Assembly: GCA_016931155.1 (NCBI GenBank) | Contig: JAFGFJ010000002.1 | Location: 385-64,384 of the forward strand | DNA length: 64,000 nucleotides | Direction of reading: 5' to 3' | Origin: Candidatus Dojkabacteria bacterium | GTDB lineage: Bacteria > Patescibacteriota > Dojkabacteria > B142 > JAFGFJ01 | Shown: piece by piece, positions 36,578 through 64,000 of the stretch | How positions within the stretch are numbered: position 1 is the stretch's first letter | How the letters are laid out: each line of letters starts with the position of its first letter | The notes under the pieces: model-generated | Told to the model about the DNA's origin: nothing | What the model saw: only the letters and a program-made list of their open reading frames with translations | Database searches by the model: none | Made by a program: the position numbers and the translations under genes

Positions 36578-37094
36578 TTGGTAATTTCATAATATCTTTC
36601 AGTTTTTTTACTGCTCTGTGAATCATAACTTTTGTTGCGTTATGTTTTTTGTTTATAATCTCCGCAACATCCTCTATCTCAAAGTCCTGCAGATATCTTA
36701 GTACAATTACTTCCTTTTCCTGCTCTTTCAGCTTATCAAGATTACTGATTATTGAGCCAAGCATTAATTCATCATCAACTGTTAGCCCTTGCTCCTTTAC
36801 AGATTCTCCCACATCATCGCTATAGCCGCTGAGAATTCCTTTTTTCTTCCTGTAAAAATCAATAATATAATTTCGGGCAATGATGTAAATCCAATTTTTT
36901 AAAGTACCCTTGTTAGGCTTGAATGTTGATCTCTTCTCCCATGCCTTGATAAACACATCCTGTGTAATATCTTCTGCTTGCTCACGATTGAATCCGCATC
37001 TCATATAAACAAAGCGGTAAAGAGATTCATTCAACCATTTAAACACTTCCTCAAGATCTTCAATTGTCTCTAACTGATTTATTTTTATTTTCAC
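36570..37094 (-). CDS. ECF (group IV) sigma-70 factor
   Basis: Region 2 (DITQDVFIKAWEKRSTF) and region 4 HTH (EKEVIVLRYLQDFEIEDVAEIINKKHNATKVMIHRA). Confidence 0.8.
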   Translation of the reverse strand: MKIKINQLETIEDLEEVFKWLNESLYRFVYMRCGFNREQAEDITQDVFIKAWEKRSTFKPNKGTLKNWIYIIARNYIIDFYRKKKGILSGYSDDVGESVKEQGLTVDDELMLGSIISNLDKLKEQEKEVIVLRYLQDFEIEDVAEIINKKHNATKVMIHRAVKKLKDIMKLPNG

Positions 37095-37248: not shown

Positions 37249-37512
37249 ATGCCGAATTTAGACAAGACTGGTCCTTTGGGAAAAGGCCCTTTTACAGGAC
37301 GGGGAAGAGGCAGGGGATTAGGATCTGGCTCAGGAGCAAGAGGTGTAGGAGCTGGAAGAGGATTGGGAGTTGGTGGTCGCAGACAGGGTGGCAATAAAGA
37401 GTGTACATGTCCAAAGTGTGGTTATTCAGAATCACAAACTAGAGGTATTCCATGTACAGAAAAAAAATGCCCTAAGTGCCAAACACCAATGAGAGGCGTT
37501 TACTGCTTATAG
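37249..37512 (+). CDS. Small Gly/Arg-rich protein with a C-terminal C4 zinc ribbon
   Basis: N-terminus TGPLGKGPFTGRGRGRGLGSGSG. C-terminus CxxC...CxxC (CTCPKCG...CPKCQ). Confidence 0.5.
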   Translation: MPNLDKTGPLGKGPFTGRGRGRGLGSGSGARGVGAGRGLGVGGRRQGGNKECTCPKCGYSESQTRGIPCTEKKCPKCQTPMRGVYCL

Positions 37513-51200: not shown

Positions 51201-53149
51201 CCATGAAGAGGCACAGAGATATCCAAGCTCAAGTAGAGGAGCTTAGGGAGGCTCGTGCACCTGACTATCTCATAAAAGCTGTTCAGATGAGAAGTCCTTA
51301 CAACAGAGGTGGTGAGGAGTCGAGCATAGACTCCAACTGGTATCAAAAAATTGTCGAGACATTGCCACTTATAGGAGGACTTGTAACACCAGGCAATGTA
51401 GAGTGGGCAAAGTCGAGCCTTTTCACTGAAGGACATCCCTTGTACGGAAGAAGTATGAAAAGAGTTCCAATTATTGGGCCGATTCTTGACCGCCATTTTC
51501 CGGTAGTACTCAAAACTGGACTTGGAGGAGAGTTTGATGTCGCAAAAAGAGATTTTACAAAAAAATGGGGACATGACGTTAAGGGTTTGGCATTTCCTTC
51601 AGATCAGCTTATAACCGGCGATAAAAATGTAATGGGAATTATGAATGGAATACAGGCCGGCCTACAGGGACTCGGAATGGATGATCTCGAACGGATAGCC
51701 TTTTTGAAAGCAATGCCGATGTTTAGAACTATTCAAATGGGTGCTGCCAACCCACCTCAGATAATCCCTTCACAGGCAGAACTCGAGGAGGAAGGAGTTC
51801 AAATATGGGCAGACAGAACTGGTTCAGGTGCTGTCCACAAATGGAAAACTCACTTTGAAAATGAGATCGTATGGGGAAGTCACTGGGATGGCACAAAAGT
51901 AACAATTGATGATGAGATTGCGAAAGCTGAAAGTAAGCTTGCCAATATGAAAGGATTAGGCAAACTTGGTACAAAAGCTTTGTCCATCATGGACAAGATC
52001 AAAGGTCTGGACGGAGCACAAAAAGAAGCGACAAAAATGAAGGAAATATATAATCTCATGGCCGCACAGCCTCCCGGAGGATATTCAATGCGCCACCTGG
52101 TCGAGATGGCAAGAAAGGCTCATGAAGGCGGCTTCTGGGATCCGGATCCTGGTAAACCAAGAAAATACTATTTCAAAGTAGGCATACCAGATCCAAATAA
52201 CCCGGATGGGGAACCCATTTTGTTTGACTTGAAGGATGTGAACACATTTGTACAAAGATACAATAGAGCTTATGCAAAGGAAATATTTGCTTCAGGAAAA
52301 GATCCAAAAACAGGCGAAGACCTTGAAGCGGCAAGTCCGGATATCCAAAGTTTACGCGTGCAACTTGAAACTGCTGAGATGAATCGAGATAGAAATCAAG
52401 CTCAACTGAAAAACCCTGCGATTTCTGATAATGACAGGAAAAAGCTGGAGGATGAAATTGGTATCCTCGATTTCCACATTGAAAATTTCAAAAAAGAGAT
52501 TGAGGAAAAATCCCACACATATAAATTTCTCAAGGGATTCGGAGAAGGTTATGATGAAAAAATGTTTTTTGATATAGTATGGGGTGAAGTCGATGGCATG
52601 AAAGAGAATATGGAAAAGGGAGCACAATACTATGCCGATTATCAATTCAGAATTGCCCAGATTGCAATGATGGAAAGACGCACCTTTCATGCATCAAATT
52701 TCTTCAACAAACTAGATAGAATACTGAACAATATTGGTCACTGGAGTCTTGTAGCAGGACTTGCTATTACAGTTGCGACTGGAGCACCAGTTGGAATAAC
52801 AATACTGCTTGGCGGCTCTGCTCTGATACTCGCAAATACGGCATTTGTAAACAAATATTCTCAGCTCTGGCTCGGCAGAAGAATAAGAGCAATTGAAACC
52901 AGAGAAAAACTGGATTCTATGCTTCAAATGTACGAAGAAGTACAATCAGGAAAATTGCTCTCACCAGCAACTCTTTCTATGCTTGAAAGACAAAAGGCAA
53001 CTATTGAATTCATGACTGAAAATATCATGAGAGTAACAGCAAAGGATTCTGTGAAACTGCCTGCCGATAGATTATTCTTTGCTGTAGGTGGCGGTCTCTG
53101 GAAAGCATTTGATGAAATGGGAGTAAACATGCTTGCAGGAAAGATCTAA
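48257..53149 (+). CDS. Giant (1630 aa) Lys/Glu-rich, predominantly helical protein with a C-terminal Gly-zipper TM hairpin. No family recognised.
   Basis: One long ORF. No signal peptide. Highly charged N-terminal ~1500 aa. C-terminal hydrophobic segment HWSLVAGLAITVATGAPVGITILLGGSALILANTAFV followed by a ~90-aa tail. Confidence 0.6.
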   Translation: MGIPGETPQKKEKKGKRQSAFMRALSRILNISAGETRKTREELAKALTEGKDIERIYKDKLKVKEADKGKEKLPPIRERIRKASVDAAVRLLRIDPRQKIDAVKFKEEMARQNIDRSTEGVPQGAFRKALAEKARKTEAEIRQVERAEMVKAIIVRESGNEKVDFGIRANIEGRNIVVNLDQKKGDDELDIIENEEKEYIDKNPDIENNDKEERKSRVNKEIDLLREIRKLRKEIKSPDSREVEAIIEKVEDFLKESKEAGQETVLLEEMIDTFDLDEITRKQVHISVISKVEGLQRNASSKEYEKIQRQTERKPLHTQLLELSADKLVAKHNQACSFYIDDYEDTSAEGSSKAGEEIIPEEKRREKDTKLRGIVNTAIDSYNQTLLEENNTGRKFEPADLYEKNTILQIPGGVAIVTSDAGQFARLVNMGEDHEAIAKNLEEQPVAGAYLKGRLANSIKEKGYEGDVIIIYAKEAEDEDGGTKGIENKWYERDLKDSETSKLIYHEIEHLLQQRNLEAIEDLHSGSDAVLEEYFENSNQARHKNLFAIYKDIITNRKNSKYFKQAPDDPIFKILAEGNITKEAGIHQLVSLYYGSKGIEFDALTSVERRGRIFEEAPGWKGGKIDAGRVFELAALPDNQRKIMTQEGETSIEVDPWENIAKENPLLQAVYFREITSDKAKIIYSDFDSPEKLMMIKDEIDSLMKTNKLTSISQLIHKISAGEVTLSENSELNKLELIKMLKVKGNDLKFVKRASEILGSFFKDTETRDALFEYSAILTGGKMAFGEGLMNPEDQHNQPLIALYKSVLGEKSNGPGDLSLRRLYLQTPEGEIPEEHIKLFKFMIAVDMILQRSGNLSTEELDANRRHIASMIYTDYNKGTDYLLQRLTDLTELTGSLSKEELKKIEEGLQSIIQNKSKADPGFLKKILYGDETKYLIPYNPDVDFSVFPTERYIKDILGAGHPAAAIDIVDALQRVYAMPFAMKRHRDIQAQVEELREARAPDYLIKAVQMRSPYNRGGEESSIDSNWYQKIVETLPLIGGLVTPGNVEWAKSSLFTEGHPLYGRSMKRVPIIGPILDRHFPVVLKTGLGGEFDVAKRDFTKKWGHDVKGLAFPSDQLITGDKNVMGIMNGIQAGLQGLGMDDLERIAFLKAMPMFRTIQMGAANPPQIIPSQAELEEEGVQIWADRTGSGAVHKWKTHFENEIVWGSHWDGTKVTIDDEIAKAESKLANMKGLGKLGTKALSIMDKIKGLDGAQKEATKMKEIYNLMAAQPPGGYSMRHLVEMARKAHEGGFWDPDPGKPRKYYFKVGIPDPNNPDGEPILFDLKDVNTFVQRYNRAYAKEIFASGKDPKTGEDLEAASPDIQSLRVQLETAEMNRDRNQAQLKNPAISDNDRKKLEDEIGILDFHIENFKKEIEEKSHTYKFLKGFGEGYDEKMFFDIVWGEVDGMKENMEKGAQYYADYQFRIAQIAMMERRTFHASNFFNKLDRILNNIGHWSLVAGLAITVATGAPVGITILLGGSALILANTAFVNKYSQLWLGRRIRAIETREKLDSMLQMYEEVQSGKLLSPATLSMLERQKATIEFMTENIMRVTAKDSVKLPADRLFFAVGGGLWKAFDEMGVNMLAGKI

Positions 53150-53196: not shown

Positions 53197-53682
53197 ATGG
53201 ATATCGTTTTTTTTGATGAAAAAATAGTCAGGATTTTCGGGAGGGCAATGGGTTTTGAAGGCCTGCAGCTTGAAGCCTTCGTAGCAGATTACAATCTAAA
53301 CCTTGTAAAGCTTTTTATACACAGTGCGCTTGAGCATATAGGGACTGATGCCGATCCGAAGGATATGAACGAGCTTCAAAGGATAGCTGACGATATTGCA
53401 GAGGAGAGAAGTGAGGATCTTACTGAGCTTGGAGAGTTCCTGGGTAAAAAGATGCTTGAGTATCCTGAAGCGGGAAAGAAAGTTGATCATGAAATTTCAG
53501 TTTTCAACGAAGGCATACTTGCAGACTTTATAGCTCACGCACCCGAAAAAAGCATTAAAGAGCTTTTGATATATATCGCAGAGACAAGAAAAAAGAACCA
53601 GAAAGTAGCAGAAATGATTGAAAAGATGAAGGCAGAGGCAAAAAGGGGAGGGCAGGAAAATGCTCAGGAGAAGACAAAATGA
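53197..53682 (+). CDS. Hypothetical small acidic helical protein, co-transcribed with the giant gene
   Basis: 161 aa, 47 nt downstream of the giant gene. No motif. Confidence 0.4.
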   Translation: MDIVFFDEKIVRIFGRAMGFEGLQLEAFVADYNLNLVKLFIHSALEHIGTDADPKDMNELQRIADDIAEERSEDLTELGEFLGKKMLEYPEAGKKVDHEISVFNEGILADFIAHAPEKSIKELLIYIAETRKKNQKVAEMIEKMKAEAKRGGQENAQEKTK

Positions 53683-54002: not shown

Positions 54003-54539
54003 CTAGGAAAATTTTTGTGCAGCTGACTGTGCAGAAGGTGGGGTAAGGTTGATCTTAGGGACAGTAACTGCATTTCCTGCATCTTCTCCAAAGACCTCAA
54101 CATAAGTTTTCATAAAATCCAGTACGGAATTTACAGAAGATTTCATTTCATTCACATAATCCTCAACCTTTTTCCGCTGATCTTCTTCCAGTTTTTTCAT
54201 GTATGATTCATAAATAAATTTGTTAAGCTCATTTATCAGATTCATAATTTTGTCTTGTAATTCTTTGGTTATATTTTGCTTTAACTCATCATCAACAGCA
54301 GAATCCATCGTCTCCTCAGCAGATTCATTATTTAGAATACTTTCGGACAGCTTAGCCTTTATCTTTGTTACCCAATCATTAGATAGTCCCTTTTCCCTGG
54401 CATAATTTTCAATAGCCTTTTCTACCAACACATCTGTCCTACCCATATAGTCATTATAAGCACTATCTTTTAGTTTGTCTTCAGAAAGACCCAAAAGCAT
54501 CCCTAGGATTTCTCTGTCAATAATATATCTATCCTTCAT
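54003..54539 (-). CDS. Hypothetical acidic helical protein
   Basis: 178 aa, last gene of a four-gene minus-strand operon (57665 to 54003). Confidence 0.4.
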   Translation of the reverse strand: MKDRYIIDREILGMLLGLSEDKLKDSAYNDYMGRTDVLVEKAIENYAREKGLSNDWVTKIKAKLSESILNNESAEETMDSAVDDELKQNITKELQDKIMNLINELNKFIYESYMKKLEEDQRKKVEDYVNEMKSSVNSVLDFMKTYVEVFGEDAGNAVTVPKINLTPPSAQSAAQKFS

Positions 54540-54552
54540 AATGATCGATTAA

Positions 54553-56733
54553 TTATGTTAGTTGTCCTATACCGTTCAGTGCATCAGTTAATTCTTTTGT
54601 TCCAGATATCCCAAACCTCTTTTCCCAGATTTTTACCACCTCTGGTATCATCTCAGGATCCAATCCATTTTTAGCAGCATATCTCTCAGCAAAGAATTTT
54701 GCTCTTTCTCCTGCTTGCGAAATTGGTATATTCTGTAACTCTGATTTAAATTTCAATATATCTCTTTCTTTTTCCAGATAATCAACTTTAACTTTTGCAT
54801 AATCCGCTTTACCACCAAAGCCAAGATATTTAATGCCAGCTACTCCACCACTTACAGCCCCCACACCTGCACCTACTCCAAGAACTCCTGTCAAAACAGG
54901 ACTTGCCGCTGTAAAGTATGCAATACCAGCACCAACACCACCACCCAATAGAAGCAAACTAGGGACACCAAAATACTTTGCAAGTGCCACAGCTCGCTTC
55001 ATTCGTAAATTGAATTTTTCTGCTTCAGCAGCTTTCACTCTTGCTTCTGCAATTTCCTCAGCAAGACCCCCACTACCGTTTGCTCCAAGCATCTTCTTTG
55101 TAAGTTCAAACTTTTTTTCCAGAGCTGCTTTCACTTCTGGTGAGCCCTGGTAGTTATCTATCTCCTCTTGCAGCTTTGAAACAACATCTGCCATATTCGC
55201 TTGCTGATCTTCTTCTGCCTGAATACTCATTTGAACAGCTTCTCCATGCTTATCTTTAATAAACTCTCTCTCTCTTTCAGTTAACGTAGGATATGCGGCA
55301 AGTTCATTGTCGATATTAAAAGTCCTGCCTACAGGAGTACATCCAGAATCAAACTTTCTCAATAACTCATCAATTATTTTCTTAATGCCTGCGTCTGTTT
55401 TGATTCTGGTCTCCTCCTCCTGGTACTTCTGTCTTGCCTGTCTTTTAAGCTCCTCTCCTTCCTGAAAAGATAATTCTCTATTCGTTACCCTTGTATCAAC
55501 TACAGTGTCATAAACGTCTAGTTCATAGAATCCTCTTCTTAGATACTCATTCATAGCAGCAGTAGTATCTCCCTTTCCTTCCTCTCTTCTTACTTTTTCC
55601 CTTTCTTCTCTCCCTGTAATTAAGGTTCTTCTTGCCGCAATTTCAGAGTTTAGTGCAGAAAATTCACTATCAGTAATATCCCTGTTTCCATGTGCAGTTA
55701 GCACCTCATCTTCTAACCTATTAAGCTCTTGTTCGTTGGAATTTGCCGGATCAGCCAATCCCTGTCTTATTCTTCGAGCCTCAGGAGATACTGTTGTCGC
55801 TCTTTCAGAATCTATCAGATCCACTATTCTCTTCCAGTCCGAGTCATTTATCTCACCATCTTTGAGAGCTCCATCAGCCCTCGATTTTGCAGTATCATAG
55901 TCAGGGTTTGGAACAAGTATAAATCCATTTATTATGCCATTTACAATATTTTTTCTTTGTGTATCAGCAAACTCTTTCTGCTTCCTTGTTTTTATACCCT
56001 CAACATCTTGCCTAGCCTGTCGAACTTGAGCTCTTTCTTCAGATATTACACTTTGATCAACGTATTGGTTTATAGCTGCTACTCTCTCTATTTCATCATC
56101 TGCACTGTCTAATATATCAAGAGCCGAGGTAACATCAACATTTGTAACAGGGATAATACTCTCAGCTGTTGATTTAGCTCTACTAACAAGATTACTTACA
56201 CTAGTCGGAAGCTTTGCTATCTCTTGATTCGCCTTTTCTTTTTTATCCTCTTCTTCCTTCCTTTGTTTCCTCTCATCTGCCTCCCTTTTCTCACTTGCAA
56301 TCTTAGCTCTAAGTTCTCTTATATCTTGATCTGCTTCGCTGAGCTTTTTTCCTCTACCTGTTTCCCCACTAATCATCTTATTCGCCGCATTAAACCTACT
56401 ATCATTATTTGTTTCTTGAAGCTTGTTTCCAACCTGAACTGATAAACTGTCAAAGGCGTTTTTTCTTTCCGTTCTAGCTTTCTCCTCAGCCTGTGATGCT
56501 CTTCTATCTGCGTCAAGCTGTTTCTTTCTACCTTCCTCCTCACTTTTCCTCTCTTTAGCAGCAGCTATAACACTAATTACTTCCTGAGCAGCTTCTGCTG
56601 TACCCGCTGCAATAGCTATTCTATATATAGACCTGTATTCAGTGGGTATCTTAGAAATCTCTGATCGCATTGCTGTCAACCGTTCTTGCGATAGAGGAGT
56701 AGAAGTTTTTGCTTGACTATCAGGATTACTCAT
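54553..56733 (-). CDS. 726-aa charged helical protein with a C-terminal Gly-zipper TM region
   Basis: Arg/Glu/Lys-rich N-terminal 550 aa. Hydrophobic region LLLLGGGVGAGIAYFTAASPVLTGVLGVGAGVGAVSGGVAGI followed by ~90 aa. Architecture parallels the 1630-aa and 1034-aa proteins. Confidence 0.55.
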   Translation of the reverse strand: MSNPDSQAKTSTPLSQERLTAMRSEISKIPTEYRSIYRIAIAAGTAEAAQEVISVIAAAKERKSEEEGRKKQLDADRRASQAEEKARTERKNAFDSLSVQVGNKLQETNNDSRFNAANKMISGETGRGKKLSEADQDIRELRAKIASEKREADERKQRKEEEDKKEKANQEIAKLPTSVSNLVSRAKSTAESIIPVTNVDVTSALDILDSADDEIERVAAINQYVDQSVISEERAQVRQARQDVEGIKTRKQKEFADTQRKNIVNGIINGFILVPNPDYDTAKSRADGALKDGEINDSDWKRIVDLIDSERATTVSPEARRIRQGLADPANSNEQELNRLEDEVLTAHGNRDITDSEFSALNSEIAARRTLITGREEREKVRREEGKGDTTAAMNEYLRRGFYELDVYDTVVDTRVTNRELSFQEGEELKRQARQKYQEEETRIKTDAGIKKIIDELLRKFDSGCTPVGRTFNIDNELAAYPTLTEREREFIKDKHGEAVQMSIQAEEDQQANMADVVSKLQEEIDNYQGSPEVKAALEKKFELTKKMLGANGSGGLAEEIAEARVKAAEAEKFNLRMKRAVALAKYFGVPSLLLLGGGVGAGIAYFTAASPVLTGVLGVGAGVGAVSGGVAGIKYLGFGGKADYAKVKVDYLEKERDILKFKSELQNIPISQAGERAKFFAERYAAKNGLDPEMIPEVVKIWEKRFGISGTKELTDALNGIGQLT

Positions 56734-57076
56734 TAGGTGGGTCTTCGCTAAAATGTTTCTTTATCTCTTCATTCATACTATTTTTAAGCTCCTCGTTAGT
56801 TGCAAGTTCACTGAAAGTTTTTTCTGTTACTTTTCCATTCTCCACACCTTCATCTAAACCTATTACAACATCCAAAATCTGCTTATCATCCAGACCTTTT
56901 CTCCTCAATTCTTCTACAAACCATTTCAAAAAATCATGGGACAGTTTCTTACCCTCAGTCAAAGCATTCTCCGGCTTAGTTACGTCTCCAATTTTCCCCT
57001 CAATTATTTGCTTCAATAAAGATGCTGGGTCAGAACTCTGTACAGTTTGTTTTGTTAGATTAGTCTGATTACCCAT
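56726..57076 (-). CDS. Hypothetical small acidic protein. Overlaps the downstream gene start by 8 nt.
   Basis: 116 aa. Translational coupling. Confidence 0.4.
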   Translation of the reverse strand: MGNQTNLTKQTVQSSDPASLLKQIIEGKIGDVTKPENALTEGKKLSHDFLKWFVEELRRKGLDDKQILDVVIGLDEGVENGKVTEKTFSELATNEELKNSMNEEIKKHFSEDPPNE

Positions 57077-57104
57077 CCTTTAAAATTTCTAGAAATATAC
57101 TAAT

Positions 57105-57665
57105 TCAACTCAATCCTTTCTCAAACTCTATAGTAGTCTGGATTATATTTCTGGCTTCGTCAAGACGCCCTTCTTTCAGGAGCTTACTCACCACTTTTTC
57201 AACTTCCTCCTTGACCCTCTTCTCATACTCAATCATAATTGGCACGACCACTTCAGAAAGCTCACGAAACTGATCATCAAGACTTGGGATCACTCTCATC
57301 AAACTCTCATATGAAATGTTTGAAGGAAGCTTCTGAAGCACCAGATCAGCAATCTTTTTCGCCCGCTCATCATCCATCTCGTCCTGCGACACCTTTTCCT
57401 TGATAAGATCGACAATGGACTGCATCACAACGTTTCGAACCTTGGCCGTATCCACTTCATCCTTGATAAGACCCGCTGGATCAAACTTCTCAAGTCTTTT
57501 TCCAAATTCCATCACCTTTTTCTGCTCGTCATTTTTTGCCACGTTAGAAGAATTTGCTGTATCTGCTTTTTGAGTATTTGTATTTGTATTTGTACTCGTA
57601 TTTGTACTCGTATTTGTACTCGTATTTGTACTTATATTTGTGTGTGCCACTTGTGCATCTGTCAT
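57105..57665 (-). CDS. Hypothetical protein with an N-terminal (TNTS)n tandem-repeat tract
   Basis: NISTNTSTNTSTNTSTNTNTNT, encoded by 12-nt tandem repeats at 57586-57645, then a helical acidic domain. Confidence 0.45.
   Translation of the reverse strand: MTDAQVAHTNISTNTSTNTSTNTSTNTNTNTQKADTANSSNVAKNDEQKKVMEFGKRLEKFDPAGLIKDEVDTAKVRNVVMQSIVDLIKEKVSQDEMDDERAKKIADLVLQKLPSNISYESLMRVIPSLDDQFRELSEVVVPIMIEYEKRVKEEVEKVVSKLLKEGRLDEARNIIQTTIEFEKGLS
57586..57645. repeat. Tandem 12-nt repeat (about five copies of GTATTTGTACTC) inside the 57105..57665 CDS
   Basis: gtatttgtactcgtatttgtactcgtatttgtactcgtatttgta... Confidence 0.85.
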
Positions 57666-57873: not shown

Positions 57874-59298
57874 GTGAAAAAAATCAGGAAAATTTTACTT
57901 GTCACAATAACTGTACTTCTCCTTTCAACTTCATCCTCAGTCCTTTTCCCTGCAAAAACCAAAGCGGATGGGCTCATGGATGCAGTATTTCTGGGAGGTG
58001 CTGAATCTATTTTCGGATGCAGAGAAGGGGAAAAGACAGCAGGTGAAGCATATGTTAAGTCATGCGGTAGCGGAAGCGTGCAGGGAGCAAGTGACTCAGA
58101 AAGCATAATGCGTGATCACGGGGCACTTGGTGTTACTGCAAATATGATAGATATGCTCTATGAGAATCCTCCAGCAAGCGGAATTGTCTATGCACAGCAA
58201 ACATGGGACAAATTCAGAACAAATGTCACTGGAGAAGTGTATGCTCAGGAAGTCTACTCACCTGGGGTCGGTTTCAGTCTTCTTCAGCCTGTTCAGCCTT
58301 ACTGGGCATGGGCTAGAAATATTTCGTACGGATTTTTCATACTTATTTTCATAGCAATTGCACTTCAAATACTTTTCAGGTCGAAAATCGACGGACAAAA
58401 TCCAGCAACACTGGCCAACTCAATACCAGGAGTCATAATTTCTCTTGCACTTGTCACTCTAAGCTATGCTATCACCGGCCTCACTATTGACCTAGTCACA
58501 ATAGGCTCAAACTTCATCAAAGGAATATACGAAACGAGCGGATTGATGGAAGACGGATCCAGGCTTCCAAACCCGGATGATCCGAGGATGAGTGTCTGGT
58601 TCGTTTTTTCGACCGCACTTGAAGGTAAAAGTGCAGGAGGTGAACTTAGTAACATAGCAAAAGGAATAAGCACAGAAGGAATTGCACTTGAGTCTGCTGC
58701 AAATCTTGCAAATGGAATTTTAGAAAACACCGCTGGTTCCTCCCTTATTTCCTTGATACTGGGAGTCACCATACTTTTTGCGGCTATGAAGCTGTTTTTT
58801 GAGCTCGTGAGAAGATATATTCAAATCATTCTAAACGTAGTACTTGCACCCATTTTGTTTCTTCTCGGAGCAATGCCGGGAGGTCTTCAAAAAGCGATAT
58901 TTCCTTTTATGAGAGGCTTTCTTGCAAATGCAACAGTTTTTATCGCAATATACGCCATCTTTGGTTTCATGGTAGTTCTACTAAAAGACCAGACCCACTT
59001 TACCACTGGAAATTATGGCTATGTTCCGCCCCTCATTGGTTTCCAAAGGGATGGAGACATGGGAGGTATTCCTTTTAATTCTATTAAAACACTCGTTGCT
59101 TTCAGTCTATTTATCACGACCACTTTGATTCCGGACATGATAGACAAAGCATTAGATGCCCCTGATTTTACACAAATTGTAAACAATCTGAGAGCAAGTA
59201 CAGCACAAGGAGCACAGCAGACTTCTGCTTTGCTCAAAGGCGTACTTGGAACTTTGGGTAATATCCAAGGTCTAACTGGAGGACAGGGACAAAGATAA
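57874..59298 (+). CDS. Polytopic membrane protein with an N-terminal signal peptide and about six TM helices. Topology resembles VirB6/TrbL.
   Basis: Signal MKKIRKILLVTITVLLLSTSSSVLFPAKTKA, a ~120-aa extracytoplasmic domain, then hydrophobic helices (ISYGFFILIFIAIALQILF, IPGVIISLALVTLSYAITGLTI, LISLILGVTILFAAMKLFF, IILNVVLAPILFLLGAM, ATVFIAIYAIFGFMVVLL, TLVAFSLFITTTLIP) and a Gly/Gln-rich tail. Confidence 0.45.
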   Translation: MKKIRKILLVTITVLLLSTSSSVLFPAKTKADGLMDAVFLGGAESIFGCREGEKTAGEAYVKSCGSGSVQGASDSESIMRDHGALGVTANMIDMLYENPPASGIVYAQQTWDKFRTNVTGEVYAQEVYSPGVGFSLLQPVQPYWAWARNISYGFFILIFIAIALQILFRSKIDGQNPATLANSIPGVIISLALVTLSYAITGLTIDLVTIGSNFIKGIYETSGLMEDGSRLPNPDDPRMSVWFVFSTALEGKSAGGELSNIAKGISTEGIALESAANLANGILENTAGSSLISLILGVTILFAAMKLFFELVRRYIQIILNVVLAPILFLLGAMPGGLQKAIFPFMRGFLANATVFIAIYAIFGFMVVLLKDQTHFTTGNYGYVPPLIGFQRDGDMGGIPFNSIKTLVAFSLFITTTLIPDMIDKALDAPDFTQIVNNLRASTAQGAQQTSALLKGVLGTLGNIQGLTGGQGQR

Positions 59299-59313: not shown

Positions 59314-60594
59314 ATGACGGATGAAACACCACTGAAAAAACTGGAAGAGCTCGAAAATGAAATAGAGAAAATTATTTCCCGGAAAGGGTTTGTTACTTTT
59401 GTTCATCTTAAAAAGCGCAAAAACATTAAATCTGTCTGGATAAAGGCGGTAAATTTTATAGACACAAAGTTAAAGAATTCTGAAAGTGATAAAGCTGCAT
59501 TCAATAAATATCTGACAGAGTTTCATGGTCTTGTCTCGAACATAAACGTTGCTGATGAATGGGTTCACTGGCAGGAAATTGAAGCTATTTACGAATCTTC
59601 CAAAAGAATAAGCCCGGAAAGCTCAGAATTCCTTCTCGCTCTTACAAAAGTACATCTTCTACGCAAAAAAAACGTACTGCCTGAACTGGGAGAGTATTCT
59701 CTCGTCAGCACCATTGAAATAGATACGCAAAGAATTAGAATTGCAAAAGGTCTTTCAATTATTAGTCCAAATGTATCTCTGATTCTGGATGGGAAAGATT
59801 TTCTACTTACCGATAAGGAAGGAAATTTTAATCTGACAACAACTCTGGGAATAGAAAAAAAAGAATGCAATATTGTTTCAACTCTTTCGACCCTGGCACA
59901 TATTCCTTCCCTTCAGGACACAATACTTGACGAAATACAGAATGTGTCAAAACATCCCTTCATATACGATCTTTATCCGGAAAAAGCAAAACGGGCACTT
60001 TGGGCAGCAACAAAACACCTCACACTTTTTGCAAGTAGATTTGCACACAACCAACTCAATAGAGGAATTGGATTGTCCGAAGCTGTCGAAAATACACAAG
60101 AATATATGAAATCTATACCAGACCTCGAGCCTGACATGTATCTGGAGATGAAAGAGTCCGGCTTGTGGGAAAGTATAAGACTGGGACTCATCAGTGAAGA
60201 AAAAATAGATCCAGTCGATGTAAAAATAATGTTTTCCGAGATTCTCGAAGCGATGGTATATCTTTGCAGATCAGCAGGCATCGTTCCTTCCAAATTCTTT
60301 GATATTGAATTTCGTGAGTCCTCAGATGAGGAAAAAAGCATTGAAGGAAATAAGTTCAGCATGGATGTTTTTGAGCTCGATGAGGGAGGGAAGAGATCGG
60401 ATTACATAATCGAAACCTACGCTGTTGTCCTTACACCCGAATCAGAAGTATCAATAGTAGATTCAGTCACAAACGGAAAGCTCAACACAGACTTTTATCC
60501 GAAATTCGACAACAGAAGTATTGCGGAAAAGATTGAAGATTATTTAACGGTGCCAGTAAATGAAAAAGAGGATTTTATAAATTATATAGAATAA
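59314..60594 (+). CDS. Hypothetical soluble 426-aa protein in the giant-protein cluster
   Basis: No TM helix and no NTP-binding motif. Follows the polytopic membrane protein by 15 nt and is followed by the next gene at +2 nt. Confidence 0.4.
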   Translation: MTDETPLKKLEELENEIEKIISRKGFVTFVHLKKRKNIKSVWIKAVNFIDTKLKNSESDKAAFNKYLTEFHGLVSNINVADEWVHWQEIEAIYESSKRISPESSEFLLALTKVHLLRKKNVLPELGEYSLVSTIEIDTQRIRIAKGLSIISPNVSLILDGKDFLLTDKEGNFNLTTTLGIEKKECNIVSTLSTLAHIPSLQDTILDEIQNVSKHPFIYDLYPEKAKRALWAATKHLTLFASRFAHNQLNRGIGLSEAVENTQEYMKSIPDLEPDMYLEMKESGLWESIRLGLISEEKIDPVDVKIMFSEILEAMVYLCRSAGIVPSKFFDIEFRESSDEEKSIEGNKFSMDVFELDEGGKRSDYIIETYAVVLTPESEVSIVDSVTNGKLNTDFYPKFDNRSIAEKIEDYLTVPVNEKEDFINYIE

Positions 60595-60595
60595 A

Positions 60596-63500
60596 ATGTC
60601 CGCTGGAAACGTCCCTATTGAGGGGGTTTTACCAAAACAGAAGACTGAGGAAGCTGGATCCGGAGTCAACGAATCTCCAAAAACTTTTGGACTGATCAAT
60701 AAAACACTTGAACGCTTTGGCATCACTATATCCATAGTAAACGACCCTAAAACCAGCGAACTTTATGAGTCAATGCTTATTGAAATTGAAAAACTTGGAT
60801 CTCAAGCAAACCCAAAGAGCATACTCAATATAATAGCAAGACATGCCTATTCGCTGGGGCTAAAAAAAGATGACTACACGAGACTTATACAGAAAATTAA
60901 ACTTACGAATGAAACAGACGCTCGCAATTTGCTTCCAATCCGAAAAAATGAAGACAGCACATTTGCTAACCTGAAAGAAACTCTGAACAGTTACAGAGTT
61001 TCCCACAAGCGAGTGATGGAGGAATATGTACAGCCCCTTGCGCAGTTGAAAGCAGTCAGACAGATGAAGGCAATGAAATTAAGATCAAGACGAAGAATGA
61101 GAGATAGCGAAAGTGCTTTTCTCAGAGGTACTGCTGCTTACCTGAACTTCCGGGAGCTTAGTGCAAAAGAACAGAAAAGAGTGGTAAAGGAGGGTGCTTT
61201 AAAGGCAGGAGGCAGGGCACTTGCAATTTATGATGATGCTTACAAATGGTTCTGGGATGATTCTGCATTTGGGAAAAAAATGCATGAAATCCGGCAGTCA
61301 AGCATAGATCTTGCGGAGAGGAAGAAAGCTGAGATCACTACACAAATCGGGGAAAAGCTTGATCCTATCAAGGCTCAAGCAAAACAGTTTATTGAAACAC
61401 AGAAAGCCGAAGTCAACAAAAAGCTAGCCCAGCCTGTAACGACAAAGTTAGAAGAGATTGACGCACCAAGGCGATTGTTTGTAAAGAAAGCCGGCACAAG
61501 ACTATTTGATCCTTCCTATTACAGAGAAAAATCATCCAGATGGGAAAAGATTTATCAGAAGACAGGCCAGAGACAAGCAGAATTGTTCGCCAGCAACGGT
61601 CTGGTCAGAAATCTAACTTCTGCCGAAAGGGAAGCAAGGGTTCGTATTTTGAACACACTCAGGAAGAGAAGGAAAAAAGGACTATTTGGGATAGCAACCA
61701 ATCTTCTAATGAAAGTGATGATGGAGCCGGTAAAGATTATTATGAAAACAGCCGGTCTTTCGGCAAAAGTTTCAGGATTTGCAACGAGAGTAAATGCTTT
61801 TTTGAAACCAAGAATAAGTGGTCTCACAAGAGGAGTATCAAAGATCACATCATCAACATTCGGTCTGTTAAAAAAATCCGTTGGTGTCACATCGAGTACA
61901 GTAAAAGCAATTGGGAATGCTGCTCTTCCTACACTATCCGTTTATCTTATTTCGGGAGGTTCCCTGCCTCTTGCAATTGCAACAGGAATAACTGTTACCG
62001 GTGCAAGCCTTACTGAAAAGCTTCTCTCTTCGCCAGATATTCTACCAAAATCCATTGTCAGTAAATTTGGGACTTTTGACGCAAAAGCAGCTCTCGCACT
62101 CAAGGAAATCCCGGATTTAAGCAAGATGAGTACAATGGAGCAGAATATTTTCAAACTAACCAAAGCGGCAGAACTCAAGGGAACACATGCACTGGCATCA
62201 ATGACAAAATCGATTACCACTGCGAGTAATGCGACTGCAGCACTTCTAGTTCTCTCATTTTTGGGATTTCCGATAACACCGGTACAGGCTCTCCTGGTAG
62301 GAGGAGGATCCGGTCTTGCTCACTTTGGTATCTCCAGACTCTACAATCAGGCTCTTACAAATGTAAAAACGAATTTGATGTTTGGCACACTCCGGCAATT
62401 CCCCGGTGGAGCAGTTGTAGGAATGTACATGGGAGGACAATGGATCAGATTTCAGGAAAGGAGACTAAGACAGCTTGGACTTAGTGATTATTTTACCCAG
62501 GAATGGCTGAATCTGAGGCTTGACGGCGGTCTTGGAAACATTATGTCCGGAGCGTCTTTTGGCTTGAGCACCTATCAGTTTGGTCAGTGGGCAAGCAAGA
62601 TGATTGGAAGCGGAGTTGCAAAAGCTACAGGTGTGAATTTTGCCAGGGCTGTCCCATATGTGACCGCCGGTACTATTTTCGGTACAGCCGCAGGCTTTCT
62701 TTTAGCACCACTTCTCGGTCTTACGCCGGGAATCGGAGCACTTATCGGAGGAGCAGTTGGTGGAGTAATTGGAGGAGCAGTTGGCATTGCTGTCGGAAAT
62801 CTGCCCGGAGGATTTTGGGGAAGTCTTACTGGATCAATCCTTGGTTCGACTGTAGGCGCATGGTTTGATACACAGCTCAATAAGATTGGGGCAAGCATTG
62901 CAAGCATGTTTCAGTTGTTCTCAATTCTTCGTTTTTTCGGTCTTATTGCCGGTTTCTTTACTTCACCATTAACCAAAATTAGCTCTCTCCTTGAAATTGT
63001 TATTGCATTTGTTATGGTTGCCGGAATAATTGGAACCTTTTCCGCCTTCGGTCTTAACTCAAGCTCCCTGAACACCCCAACTCAGAATCCAGGTAGTAAT
63101 TCACTAAACAGCTATCAGTCAGCACTGGCGAGTGCCTTTCCGGGAATAACACAAGATATTTTGATGCAAGAAAAAAAAGAAAAGCTGTATTTTTCATTTG
63201 ATGAAGAGCAACCTCAAGTGCAGGCATGTTTTCTTGACGACATAGAGTCGGAAGGATACTACGCTCTTGAAAAAGGTTATTACAATCCAATATGGAAAAA
63301 TTATGGAATATTATTTTTTGGAGAAGCAAAGCTGATAAAAAGTCCAATAGAAGGGATTGTAGTCTATTCAGGTAAAAACAACATCTACAAGAGGGACAAA
63401 AATGGAGATTTCTCAAAAAGTGAAGAAAATACTCTAATAATAACCCAATTGCCGGAGCAAACATATTTCATTGCATTTGATGGGATTGATACCGAGCTTA

Positions 63501-63700
63501 AATCAGAAAATAGAATTAAAAGTGGACAATTACTTGGAACGAGTTCACAAAATTTCAGAGTATCTGTATTTAATTATGCTCAAAACTACAGACCATATAA
63601 CCCCAGAAATGCAACTAATCCTTGCGAACCACTTGATGAAGTGGGTTTTCCGGGATTTGCATGTAATATAATCCCATCGTTCGTTGAAAAGTGTAAATAA
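60596..63700 (+). CDS. Large (1034 aa) protein: charged helical N-terminal half, extensive Gly-zipper polytopic region, and a C-terminal ~200-aa Cys-containing globular domain of unknown function
   Basis: GxxxG-rich hydrophobic stretch GTAAGFLLAPLLGLTPGIGALIGGAVGGVIGGAVGIAVGNLPGGFWGSLTGSILGSTVGAWF plus further helices. The C-terminal domain contains QACFLDD, NPCEPLD and GFACNII. Confidence 0.55.
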   Translation: MSAGNVPIEGVLPKQKTEEAGSGVNESPKTFGLINKTLERFGITISIVNDPKTSELYESMLIEIEKLGSQANPKSILNIIARHAYSLGLKKDDYTRLIQKIKLTNETDARNLLPIRKNEDSTFANLKETLNSYRVSHKRVMEEYVQPLAQLKAVRQMKAMKLRSRRRMRDSESAFLRGTAAYLNFRELSAKEQKRVVKEGALKAGGRALAIYDDAYKWFWDDSAFGKKMHEIRQSSIDLAERKKAEITTQIGEKLDPIKAQAKQFIETQKAEVNKKLAQPVTTKLEEIDAPRRLFVKKAGTRLFDPSYYREKSSRWEKIYQKTGQRQAELFASNGLVRNLTSAEREARVRILNTLRKRRKKGLFGIATNLLMKVMMEPVKIIMKTAGLSAKVSGFATRVNAFLKPRISGLTRGVSKITSSTFGLLKKSVGVTSSTVKAIGNAALPTLSVYLISGGSLPLAIATGITVTGASLTEKLLSSPDILPKSIVSKFGTFDAKAALALKEIPDLSKMSTMEQNIFKLTKAAELKGTHALASMTKSITTASNATAALLVLSFLGFPITPVQALLVGGGSGLAHFGISRLYNQALTNVKTNLMFGTLRQFPGGAVVGMYMGGQWIRFQERRLRQLGLSDYFTQEWLNLRLDGGLGNIMSGASFGLSTYQFGQWASKMIGSGVAKATGVNFARAVPYVTAGTIFGTAAGFLLAPLLGLTPGIGALIGGAVGGVIGGAVGIAVGNLPGGFWGSLTGSILGSTVGAWFDTQLNKIGASIASMFQLFSILRFFGLIAGFFTSPLTKISSLLEIVIAFVMVAGIIGTFSAFGLNSSSLNTPTQNPGSNSLNSYQSALASAFPGITQDILMQEKKEKLYFSFDEEQPQVQACFLDDIESEGYYALEKGYYNPIWKNYGILFFGEAKLIKSPIEGIVVYSGKNNIYKRDKNGDFSKSEENTLIITQLPEQTYFIAFDGIDTELKSENRIKSGQLLGTSSQNFRVSVFNYAQNYRPYNPRNATNPCEPLDEVGFPGFACNIIPSFVEKCK

Positions 63701-63707
63701 AAACATT

Positions 63708-64000
63708 ATGAAAACTAGACCTCAAAAATTTTTAACTATTCCTATTCTTTTTCTGGTCATCGGTTTTGCAATTTTTATATTTGTCAAAAGTAATAAGCCT
63801 GGACAGCCCAGTGTAAATACAAACAGCACAACAACAGAATCTCTTTCCATAGAACAACCCTTTGACTTCGAAAACAAACAAACCGGCGTTGAATTCAAAA
63901 ACTTGATTCCAAATAATAGTGTCTCAAAACAATTCTCACTTTATGAAGTTGACCCTTATCAGGAGTATTTCCCCTCGGCAAAGCTTGCAAAAGATATAGG
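63708..64000 (+). CDS. 3'-partial gene for a secreted/membrane-anchored protein that continues the cluster beyond the window
   Basis: ATG at 63708. Frame open to the window end. N-terminal anchor MKTRPQKFLTIPILFLVIGFAIFIFV. Confidence 0.5.
   Translation, partial: MKTRPQKFLTIPILFLVIGFAIFIFVKSNKPGQPSVNTNSTTTESLSIEQPFDFENKQTGVEFKNLIPNNSVSKQFSLYEVDPYQEYFPSAKLAKDI

What the first reader, a model, noticed from the sequence alone, without database searches (positions are those of the whole stretch)
57874..59298. Signal-peptide-bearing six-TM protein with VirB6/TrbL-like topology at the head of the giant-protein operon
A cleavable N-terminal signal followed by a ~120-aa extracytoplasmic domain and five or six TM helices with a Gly/Gln-rich C-terminal tail is the topology of VirB6/TrbL inner-membrane channel components. 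It is co-directional with, and 15 nt upstream of, the following genes. This is the only element in the block that hints at a type-IV-secretion-like or conjugation-like origin. The call rests on topology only.
Basis: inference. Interest (0 to 1): 0.55.

Follow-up and report, generated by a model that had tools for sequence, protein, structure and literature searches.

The report
Divergent VirB6-like membrane protein, Dojkabacteria
This gene encodes a real, conserved multi-pass membrane protein from a large, unannotated family of candidate-phyla-radiation bacteria that looks like a very divergent VirB6, the membrane platform of type IV secretion systems, but in this organism it sits in a different conserved gene module with no other secretion genes nearby.

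Summary
The ORF is real: 57874-59298 (+), GTG start, 474 aa. It has a signal peptide, an ectodomain of about 110 aa, six hydrophobic helices and a Gly/Gln-rich tail. It lies 15 nt upstream of the next gene. The organism is a Candidatus Dojkabacteria (Patescibacteria) chromosome.

There is no Pfam hit, including TrbL/VirB6. A profile of its homologues finds 4,395 representative clusters. In the main branch of this family the gene sits directly after arrays of about six VirB2-like T4SS pilin genes (36 of 37 loci with enough upstream DNA), usually with VirD4, PrgI/VirB3, TraC-like and VirB4 genes within 10 kb.

The AlphaFold model (pLDDT 78) has VirB6-class proteins as its five best PDB matches (R388 TrwI, Legionella DotA). 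Weak, co-linear profile hits point to monoderm conjugation membrane proteins, including pLS20 gene 49, an "extended VirB6".

However, the window protein belongs to a monophyletic subclade found in nine loci, none with pilins or T4SS ATPases within 10 kb. There it is fused into a conserved module with two unknown proteins (426 and 1034 aa) and giant C-terminally anchored proteins. Whether it serves a distant T4SS or a separate machine is unresolved.

The parts
57874..59298 (+). Target gene: 474-aa VirB6-like polytopic membrane protein (GTG start)
   Evidence: ORF. 100% identical to NCBI hypothetical protein JW796_00635, Ca. Dojkabacteria. Family of 4,395 representative clusters. AlphaFold model pLDDT 78.3. 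Top PDB fold hits are VirB6-class.
57874..57966 (+). Signal peptide (residues 1-31; predicted cleavage after AKTKA)
   Evidence: Sequence features and hydropathy. An N-terminal hydrophobic segment followed by an A-x-A-like site recurs in homologues. Cleavage is inferred, not tested.
57967..58284 (+). Extracytoplasmic N-terminal region (residues 32-137), ending in the conserved NPPASG and GxGF motifs
   Evidence: Alignment invariants P100, G131, G133. Low to medium model confidence.
58285..58536 (+). Conserved core 1 (residues 138-221): W144-x3-R148-N149-x2-Y152, TM1, FR-K-I-D loop, TM2 with P185, S197-Y198, G202, D206
   Evidence: Invariant columns. pLDDT 85-96. Most of this stretch lies within the region (residues 105-194) aligned to pLS20_p028/extended-VirB6 by hhalign, P = 2.9e-4, and residues 138-204 match the NCBIfam model.
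58537..58728 (+). Variable extracytoplasmic loop (residues 222-285) with the subclade-specific PDDP..SVW motif
   Evidence: Alignments A1/A4. pLDDT 56-77.
58729..59151 (+). Conserved core 2 (residues 286-426): TM3-TM6 with Y315, P326, P335, F356, P385-P386, P417
   Evidence: Invariant columns. pLDDT 82-97. The equivalent region of subclade members hits MMCAP2_0566 (E = 2.2e-5) and pLS20_p028 (E = 0.0022) models co-linearly.
59152..59298 (+). C-terminal amphipathic helix and Gly/Gln-rich tail (residues 427-474)
   Evidence: Sequence. Model helix 432-467.
59314..60594 (+). p426: acidic soluble protein with no TM, always immediately downstream of the VirB6-like gene in this subclade
   Evidence: Homologues 7-29 nt downstream in L001, L004, L005, L006, L008 and L010. 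Positional counterparts of 396 aa in L093 and L094. No Pfam, NCBIfam or PHROG hit. No relation to T4SS families.
60596..63700 (+). p1034: basic N-terminal region, glycine-zipper TM cluster (~548-821), C-terminal degenerate LytM/M23-like region
   Evidence: Homologues follow p426 in the same loci. Weak hits: Gly-zipper E = 0.0075 and Peptidase_M23 E = 0.22. PHROG tape-measure E = 9.9e-5. Hydropathy.
48257..53149 (+). Giant 1630-aa charged protein with a C-terminal TM hairpin (1496-1532); upstream member of the module
   Evidence: Giant ORFs (1444-1784 aa) occupy the same position in L001, L008 and L093. Sequence similarity is only detectable to L004 (E = 1.4e-5). Hydropathy.
53197..53682 (+). 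p161: small acidic soluble protein following the giant gene
   Evidence: Homologues in L004, L005 and L006. In L006 it lies directly upstream of the VirB6-like gene. L001 has an unaligned 138-aa ORF at the same position.
54003..57665 (-). Four minus-strand genes (p178, p726 with a C-terminal Gly-rich TM, p116, p186) separating p161 from the VirB6-like gene
   Evidence: ORFs. A similar minus-strand block of ORFs (228, 762 and 89 aa) occupies the same position in L093, not tested for homology. p186/p178/p116 homologues are in L010. This block is absent from L001 and L006.
63708..64000 (+). Start of a further co-directional ORF with an N-terminal TM anchor, running off the window
   Evidence: Read from the sequence. 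Not analysed further.

Best explanation
The gene encodes a very divergent VirB6-class protein. VirB6 is the polytopic cytoplasmic-membrane subunit that oligomerises into the central platform or protochannel of a type IV secretion system.

It belongs to a large Patescibacteria family that Pfam does not capture. In most members this family is the membrane protein encoded directly after the VirB2-like pilin array of the Patescibacteria (MPF-FATA-derived) T4SS.

The window protein keeps every family-invariant residue. It belongs to a Dojkabacteria-centred subclade in which the gene has left the pilin/ATPase locus. There it is fixed in an operon-like unit with p426 and the glycine-zipper protein p1034, next to giant C-terminally anchored proteins.

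Most likely mechanism (inferred). After Sec export and signal-peptide cleavage, the N-terminal region and the loop between TM2 and TM3 face outward. The six-helix core oligomerises in the membrane. This platform serves the cell's T4SS-type apparatus, whose VirB4 is encoded elsewhere (Dojkabacteria genomes are VirB4-positive). p426 and p1034 would be lineage-specific partners.

Shown: the gene is real, family membership, the gene neighbourhoods, and fold and profile resemblance. Inferred: oligomerisation, topology, partners and the substrate pathway.
For: Family and conservation.

Neighbourhood of the main branch:
- 66 of 80 metagenome loci carry T4SS_pilin-like ORFs.
- 36 of 37 loci with >= 2.5 kb upstream have them, and 28 of 37 have >= 4 co-directional copies directly upstream.
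- 16 of 25 loci with >= 9 kb downstream have VirD4, PrgI, TraC-like or VirB4 genes.

Fold: the five best matches among 350,542 PDB chains are DotA and R388 TrwI/VirB6, with Foldseek probability 0.75-0.98. A BFVD protein named TrbL/VirB6 also appears.

Sequence:
- The three NCBIfam models matched by the most family members are all monoderm conjugation membrane proteins: MMCAP2_0566 (11/75, best 2.2e-5), Mbov_0396 (10/75, best 5.7e-5) and pLS20_p028 (6/75, best 0.0022).
- pLS20_p028 is pLS20 gene 49, a 'putative extended-VirB6' next to VirD4. A C. perfringens homologue is annotated VirB6-like PcpB6.
- hhalign of the family against the pLS20_p028 family gives P = 2.9e-4, probability 40%.

Literature:
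- VirB6 homologues in Patescibacteria are scarce in Microgenomatia and absent in Gracilibacteria, 'suggesting extreme sequence divergence', and 176 of 480 lie away from virB4 (PMC12102498).
- Dojkabacteria assemblies are VirB4-positive.
Against: - No hit of the target to Pfam TrbL/VirB6.
- hhalign against the TrwI family gives probability 1.3%, E = 0.041.
- All fold matches have E > 0.01 and TM-scores of 0.18-0.40.
- All NCBIfam hits are far below curated cut-offs.
- The window (64 kb) and nine subclade loci (+-10 kb) have no pilin, VirB4, VirD4 or PrgI gene.
- The subclade is tightly linked to unrelated genes instead.
- I could not see whole Dojkabacteria genomes, so a second, pilin-linked family copy in the same genome is not excluded.
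Confidence: 0.6

Rival explanations
1. Neofunctionalised paralogue. The subclade protein is VirB6-derived but no longer part of the T4SS. With p426, p1034 and the giant C-terminally anchored proteins it would form a separate envelope machine, for example a surface or host-contact structure or an export route for the giant proteins.
For: The subclade is monophyletic in the NJ tree (30 of 189 terminals) and contains no pilin-linked locus. All nine subclade loci have p426 (or a positional counterpart) 7-29 nt downstream, followed by p1034, and none has pilins or ATPases within 10 kb. In contrast, 36 of 37 main-branch loci have pilins. p1034 has tape-measure-like and LytM-like hints.
Against: All family-invariant residues are retained. 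Dispersed T4SS genes are common in Patescibacteria. No genome was shown to hold both a main-branch and a subclade copy. The neighbours have no recognisable function.
Confidence: 0.27
2. Unrelated helical membrane protein (transporter, permease or insertase-like) whose resemblance to VirB6 is generic to helical bundles. Its relatives' position in T4SS loci would reflect a T4SS accessory role unrelated to VirB6.
For: No significant match to PF04610. Fold E-values are 0.05-0.08 with low TM-scores. The N-terminal signal peptide plus ectodomain may not be typical of minimal VirB6 (from memory, not tested here).
Against: All five top PDB hits are VirB6-class, while every other hit has probability <= 0.3. 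Three independent conjugation membrane-protein models are the top NCBIfam hits, and they are co-linear. hhalign P = 2.9e-4 to extended VirB6. Accepted VirB6 classes are themselves not linkable by the same test (A8 vs A5: probability 0.7%), so the PF04610 failure is not discriminating.
Confidence: 0.1
3. Remnant of a conjugative element or prophage inserted in the chromosome.
For: VirB6-like fold. p1034 gives a weak tape-measure hit. Jumbo Bacillus phage proteins share the fold.
Against: The window has no relaxase, integrase, ATPase or capsid/terminase gene among those scanned. There is no marked GC shift. The same module, with the same downstream chromosomal neighbours (He_PIG, SBP_bac_1, DUF3048), is conserved in L001, L008, L093 and L094.
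Confidence: 0.03

Closest known systems
R388 TrwI / A. tumefaciens VirB6 (Pfam TrbL PF04610; PDB 7O3V, 8RT9, 8RTD)
   Same: Polytopic helical membrane protein. It is the best solved-structure match (Foldseek probability up to 0.98). In relatives the gene is encoded beside VirB2-like pilins, which matches the proposed VirB6 role in recruiting pilin.
   Different: No significant sequence or profile match. The target is larger (474 vs ~300-340 aa). It has a cleavable-looking signal peptide, a ~110-aa N-terminal ectodomain and a ~65-aa outward loop. TM-scores are low (0.22-0.40).
Monoderm 'extended VirB6' (pLS20 gene 49 = NCBIfam pLS20_p028 family; C. perfringens PcpB6)
   Same: It comes from the MPF-FATA-type monoderm systems that the Patescibacteria T4SS derives from. 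Weak hits are co-linear: target 138-204 to model 56-120, and P0003 327-409 to model 248-326. hhalign P = 2.9e-4.
   Different: Scores are far below the curated cut-off (9-17 bits vs 150). The target lacks the large C-terminal hydrophilic domain (474 aa vs 700-1100 aa). pLS20 gene 49 sits next to VirD4, whereas the target has no ATPase nearby.
Mycoplasma ICE membrane proteins (NCBIfam MMCAP2_0566 and Mbov_0396 families)
   Same: These are the most frequent and best NCBIfam hits of the family. The best is E = 2.2e-5, for the Dojkabacteria subclade member P0014, covering the TM3-TM6 core.
   Different: The hits are sub-threshold. I did not establish which ICE CDS these models represent. The target itself does not hit them.
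VirB6 of the Saccharibacteria T4SS (Ca. Southlakia epibionticum ML1, TM7x) next to the six-pilin array
   Same: The main-branch relatives have the locus layout described in the literature: about six VirB2-like pilins with VirB6, VirB4, PrgI and VirD4.
   Different: I could not obtain those proteins to test whether they belong to this family. The window protein is not in such a locus.
Legionella DotA (VirB6-class protochannel, PDB 9NGY)
   Same: Top Foldseek PDB hit (E = 0.049, probability 0.80). It is a VirB6-class protein with extra extracytoplasmic domains.
   Different: Much larger, from a diderm Dot/Icm system, with a very low TM-score (0.11-0.18).

Membership tests
TrbL/VirB6 (Pfam PF04610) | Match to the family HMM above the gathering threshold | tested here: not met
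   No Pfam hit for the target at E <= 1. Only 1 of 75 family members reaches E = 0.0027.
TrbL/VirB6 (Pfam PF04610) | Profile-profile similarity to bona fide VirB6 (R388 TrwI subfamily) | tested here: inconclusive
   hhalign A2 vs A5 gives probability 1.3%, E = 0.041, aligning target 323-424 to TrwI 178-268. The control, pLS20-type VirB6 vs the TrwI family, is equally negative, so the test lacks power.
TrbL/VirB6 (Pfam PF04610) | Polytopic membrane protein with 5 or more hydrophobic helices | tested here: met
   Hydropathy and the AlphaFold helices 138-167, 175-221, 286-331, 337-371 and 401-426.
TrbL/VirB6 (Pfam PF04610) | Fold resembling solved VirB6-class structures | tested here: met
TrbL/VirB6 (Pfam PF04610) | Encoded within a T4SS locus (VirB4, VirD4, VirB2/3/8 nearby) | tested here: not met
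   No VirB4, VirD4, PrgI or pilin hit anywhere in the 64-kb window, nor in nine subclade loci (Pfam scans). This feature is met for the main branch of the family.
TrbL/VirB6 (Pfam PF04610) | Pentameric assembly forming the stalk base or protochannel with VirB5/pilin | not testable with these tools
Monoderm extended VirB6 (NCBIfam NF045890, pLS20_p028 / PcpB6) | HMM score above the curated cut-off (150 bits) | tested here: not met
   Target: 9.2 bits, E = 0.48. Best family member: 16.9 bits, E = 0.0022.
Monoderm extended VirB6 (NCBIfam NF045890, pLS20_p028 / PcpB6) | Profile-profile similarity of the membrane domain | tested here: inconclusive
   hhalign A2 vs A8 gives probability 40%, P = 2.9e-4, over target 105-194 vs p028 39-112. 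This is suggestive, not decisive.
Monoderm extended VirB6 (NCBIfam NF045890, pLS20_p028 / PcpB6) | Large C-terminal hydrophilic domain after the N-terminal TM bundle | tested here: not met
   The target ends 48 residues after the last helix.
Patescibacteria pilin-array-adjacent membrane protein family (unnamed; defined here by alignments A1-A3) | Full-length HMM match and the family-invariant residues (G131, G133, W144, R148, P185, S197, D206, P326, P335) | tested here: met
   The profile retrieves 4,395 representatives. The invariant columns are numbered on the target, so it carries all of them. Caveat: the target is itself the first row of alignments A1-A3, so its match to profiles built from them (for example local family HMM E = 1e-100) is partly by construction. 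The independent evidence is the 53-27% identity of the full-length homologues.
Patescibacteria pilin-array-adjacent membrane protein family (unnamed; defined here by alignments A1-A3) | Gene directly downstream of a VirB2-like pilin array | tested here: not met
   The pilin HMM has no hit in the window or in subclade loci. Upstream of the target are minus-strand genes for charged soluble proteins.

The most novel reading that the evidence does not exclude
The Dojkabacteria-type subclade marks a previously undescribed, T4SS-derived envelope apparatus. In it a VirB6-like platform has been uncoupled from pilins and ATPase genes. It works instead with a tape-measure/LytM-like glycine-zipper protein (p1034), a soluble partner (p426) and giant C-terminally anchored proteins. 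Possible roles are as a host-contact or cell-wall-penetrating device, or as the export route for the giant proteins of these epibionts.
Probability: 0.25. Interest if true: 0.7.

Novelty: new variant of a known kind. Interest (0 to 1): 0.45.

Why it matters
The T4SS is the only secretion machine shown to be essential for an epibiotic Patescibacterium. Yet its VirB6 component is reported as scarce or missing in major classes because of sequence divergence (PMC12102498).

The family identified here has at least 4,395 clusters at 50% identity and no Pfam annotation. It sits right after the VirB2-like pilin arrays, so it is a strong candidate for that missing subunit. That would give structural and genetic studies a concrete target.

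The window's subclade adds a second point. A VirB6-like platform can be stably re-wired into a different conserved gene module with giant membrane-anchored proteins. This either shows how dispersed T4SS genes are organised in Dojkabacteria or reveals a derived machine. The practical consequence for annotation is modest. The biological consequence depends on resolving orthologue versus paralogue.

Tried and rejected
- Pfam and NCBIfam on the target alone gave nothing usable.
- PDB sequence searches with profiles A1 and A2 found nothing.
- hhalign of the family against the single sequences TrwI and PrgH was uninformative because of single-sequence profiles.
- hhalign against a TrwI-family alignment was not significant. 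I do not treat this as evidence against homology, because two accepted VirB6 classes also fail the same test.
- The search for related loci with A1 failed for lack of a conserved stretch. With the single protein it found no genome locus.
- The last large protein search, with A2, returned only 10 proteins and no taxon names.
- Cluster look-ups gave names for only three proteins. I therefore could not establish the taxonomy of the main branch, or whether one genome holds both branches.
- hhalign of the neighbours (p426, p161, giant, p1034) against the pilin, VirD4, VirB4, PrgI, TraC-like and 'big1116' families was all negative.
- PHROGs gave no hit for the target.
- Promoter and terminator scans were not enriched over shuffles and were not used.
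- The idea that p1034 and the ~1,100-aa neighbour of main-branch genes are homologous was rejected.
Full report
**Observation**

The ORF at 57874-59298 (+) exists. It starts with GTG and encodes 474 aa.
- Its N-terminus (MKKIRKILLVTITVLLLSTSSSVLFPAKTKA|DG) looks like a Sec signal peptide.
- Hydropathy windows give hydrophobic segments at residues 6-27, 145-174, 178-210, 285-313, 311-338 and 341-373. The structure model adds a confident helix at 401-426.
- About 110 residues separate the signal peptide from the first core helix, and the C-terminal tail is Gly/Gln-rich.
- The next co-directional ORF starts 15 nt later. The ORF after that starts 1 nt after the second one.

The window is chromosomal DNA of a Candidatus Dojkabacteria (Patescibacteria/CPR) bacterium.
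- The protein is 100% identical to NCBI 'hypothetical protein JW796_00635'.
- The rest of the window carries housekeeping genes: TruB, FtsW, AsnS, UvrA, GlmS, MiaB-like and BipA.

**The family**

A word-seeded search found 12 homologues, none with a Pfam domain. A profile of these, run against 1.84 billion representatives, found 4,395 proteins at E <= 1e-3 and 2,728 at E <= 1e-30. This is a very large family.

Alignments of 75-105 members show invariant or nearly invariant positions: P100, G131, G133, W144, R148, N149, Y152, R169, P185, S197, Y198, G202, D206, Y315, P326, P335, F356, P385-P386 and P417. All are present in the target.

**Direct tests of the VirB6/TrbL idea by sequence**

- The target has no Pfam hit, including PF04610. 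Only 1 of 75 members reaches E = 0.0027 for TrbL.
- PDB sequence searches with profiles found nothing.
- I built a TrwI/VirB6 alignment from R388. hhalign against the family gave probability 1.3% and E = 0.041.
- The NCBIfam scan of 75 members was more informative. The three families matched by most members are all conjugation membrane proteins of monoderm elements:
  - MMCAP2_0566: 11/75, best E = 2.2e-5.
  - Mbov_0396: 10/75, best E = 5.7e-5.
  - pLS20_p028: 6/75, best E = 0.0022.
- The best hits come from members of the target's own subclade, and the hits are co-linear. The target's residues 138-204 align to pLS20_p028 positions 56-120. P0003 residues 327-409 align to positions 248-326.
- In pLS20 this protein is encoded directly after VirD4. 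It is gene 49, described as a 'putative extended-VirB6' (PMC8557374). A C. perfringens homologue is annotated 'VirB6-like PcpB6'.
- I assembled 13 diverse N-terminal membrane domains of this family. hhalign against the target's family gave probability 40% and P = 2.9e-4, over target residues 105-194.
- As a control, the pLS20-type family and the TrwI family are both accepted VirB6 classes, yet they are not linkable by the same test (probability 0.7%). The failure against PF04610 therefore says little.

**Structure**

With 12 sequences the model was poor (pLDDT 53). With 105 sequences it reached mean pLDDT 78.3 and pTM 0.67, with the helical core above 90.

Foldseek against 350,542 PDB chains gave no hit below E = 0.001. 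Even so, the five best hits are all VirB6-class:
- Legionella DotA in the DotA-IcmX protochannel (E = 0.049).
- Four chains of R388 TrwI/VirB6 (E = 0.052-0.084, probability 0.75-0.98, TM-score on target 0.30-0.40).

In the viral library, three uncharacterised phage proteins, including Bacillus phage G Gp153, match at E = 8e-5 to 3e-4. A protein named TrbL/VirB6 appears at rank 22.

**Genomic context of relatives**

This is the strongest evidence. A 27%-identical homologue (P0010) lies directly after six PF18895 T4SS_pilin genes. Within 10 kb it has a VirD4-like coupling protein, a PrgI-domain protein, a TraC-like protein and a VirB4-like ATPase. Another homologue (P0008) has four pilin genes nearby.

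I fetched 80 metagenome loci of the main branch. I then searched them with locally built HMMs seeded from these genes and from pCF10 and R388.
- 66 of 80 loci carry pilin-like ORFs (median 119 aa).
- 36 of 37 loci with >= 2.5 kb upstream carry pilin-like ORFs somewhere in the locus. 28 of the 37 have four or more co-directional copies directly upstream.
- 16 of 25 loci with >= 9 kb downstream have VirD4, PrgI, TraC-like or VirB4 genes.

The typical layout is [about 6 pilins]-[family gene]-[~1,000-1,400-aa gene on the opposite strand]-...-[VirD4]-[PrgI-domain]-[TraC-like]-[VirB4].

This is the Patescibacteria T4SS locus described in the literature: six divergent VirB2-like pilins with VirB3/4/6 and VirD4, essential in Ca. 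Southlakia epibionticum. That literature also reports that recognisable VirB6 homologues are scarce in Microgenomatia and absent in Gracilibacteria, 'suggesting extreme sequence divergence'. The family found here is a natural candidate for that missing subunit.

**The window protein is in a different context**

No pilin, VirB4, VirD4, PrgI or TraC-like HMM hits any ORF of the 64-kb window. Pfam scans of the larger ORFs found none either.

In a neighbour-joining tree of 189 family members, the window protein falls in a monophyletic group of 30. None of these is a pilin-linked locus. At least two members are labelled Dojkabacteria.

All nine loci of this subclade that I could inspect share a module (window, L001, L004, L005, L006, L008, L010, L093, L094):
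- the family gene;
- a p426 homologue or positional counterpart 7-29 nt downstream;
- then a p1034 homologue;
- where the upstream region is available, a giant (1,444-1,784 aa) protein and a small ORF upstream (a p161 homologue in L004, L005 and L006);
- the same downstream chromosomal genes (He_PIG, SBP_bac_1, DUF3048) in L001, L008, L093 and L094 (in L094, He_PIG only before the contig ends).

In the window and in L093, minus-strand genes separate p161 from the family gene. The window block is at 54003-57665.

None of these neighbours has a Pfam or NCBIfam assignment. None is related by hhalign to the T4SS-locus families.

What can be said about the neighbours:
- p1034 has a basic N-terminal half and a glycine-zipper TM cluster. 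In the window and in L010 it also has a C-terminal region weakly resembling a degenerate M23/LytM domain (Pfam E = 0.22). It has a weak tape-measure PHROG hit (E = 9.9e-5) and evolves fast.
- The giant 1630-aa protein and p726 are charged proteins with a C-terminal TM segment. That is the same architecture as several of the unrelated ~1,100-aa proteins next to main-branch genes, where 3 of 5 inspected have a single C-terminal TM.

**Interpretation**

This is a VirB6-class membrane protein of the Patescibacteria T4SS lineage, closer to monoderm 'extended VirB6' membrane domains than to Pfam TrbL.

For this particular gene, the T4SS connection is by descent, not by neighbourhood. Dojkabacteria genomes do encode VirB4. 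In addition, 176 of 480 recognised Patescibacteria VirB6 homologues lie away from virB4. The simplest reading is therefore that this is the lineage's VirB6, encoded in a dispersed arrangement with lineage-specific partners.

The alternative is a paralogue recruited into a separate machine with p426, p1034 and the giant proteins. The strict and different synteny supports this, and I could not exclude it because whole genomes were out of reach. A chance resemblance or a mobile-element remnant is unlikely.

**Novelty and score**

T4SS and VirB6 in Patescibacteria are known. What is new is twofold:
- the assignment of this large unannotated family to the VirB6 role;
- the existence of a subclade re-wired into a distinct conserved module.

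I rate it a new variant of a known kind, with interest 0.45.

Noticed in passing
window 60596-63700 (+): p1034 combines a basic N-terminal half, a glycine-zipper TM cluster (~548-821) and a C-terminal stretch that weakly resembles a degenerate M23/LytM domain (Pfam E = 0.22). The catalytic His positions appear to be replaced, judged by eye from the sequence. It also gives a weak PHROG tape-measure hit (E = 9.9e-5). The LytM-like end is shared only with L010.
   Followed up: partly
window 48257-53149 (+) and 54553-56733 (-); L002 11516-14866 (-): Large, highly charged proteins without a signal peptide but with a C-terminal TM segment lie next to VirB6-like genes in both branches of the family. 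3 of 5 main-branch examples inspected have a single C-terminal TM. They show no detectable sequence homology between branches (hhalign negative). This is a recurring architecture of unknown meaning.
   Followed up: partly
window 54003-57665 (-): Four minus-strand genes for charged proteins interrupt the p161 / VirB6-like adjacency seen in L006 (L001 has an unaligned 138-aa ORF at that position). L093 has a minus-strand block of similar-sized ORFs, and L010 has p186/p178/p116 homologues. This suggests an inversion or insertion inside the module.
   Followed up: partly
window 57560-57650 (-), N-terminus of p186: A low-complexity (T-N-T-S)n run, TNISTNTSTNTSTNTSTNTNTNT, encoded by a short tandem DNA repeat (…tttgtactcgtatttgtactcg…).
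   Followed up: no
BFVD hits A0A7U3TFF5, A7KUX7, G3MBL9 (Bacillus phage G Gp153), A0A024B0N2 (Bacillus phage Evoli): Uncharacterised phage membrane proteins match the model better (E = 8e-5 to 3e-4 for the first three, probability 1.0) than any solved structure does. They may be phage-encoded VirB6-like proteins.
   Followed up: no
window 35780-37094 (-): An ECF-type sigma-70 gene with an adjacent DUF5667 gene. A sigma-70 gene flanks the pilin array in L002/L003, and a DUF5667 gene flanks the family gene in L009. Here the pair is 21 kb away and the genes next to it are not T4SS-like.
   Followed up: partly
alignments A8 vs A5 (no window coordinates): Two accepted VirB6 classes, pLS20-type extended VirB6 and the R388 TrwI family, are not linkable by hhalign with these alignments (probability 0.7%). 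This illustrates how weak sequence tests are for this protein class.
   Followed up: yes
window 63708-64000 (+): A further co-directional ORF with an N-terminal TM anchor begins 7 nt after p1034 and runs off the window. L010 has a 308-aa ORF at the same position.
   Followed up: no
window 37249-37512 (+): An 87-aa ORF with a Gly/Arg-rich N-terminal half followed by two CxxC pairs (CPKC…CPKC), resembling a small zinc-ribbon protein.
   Followed up: no
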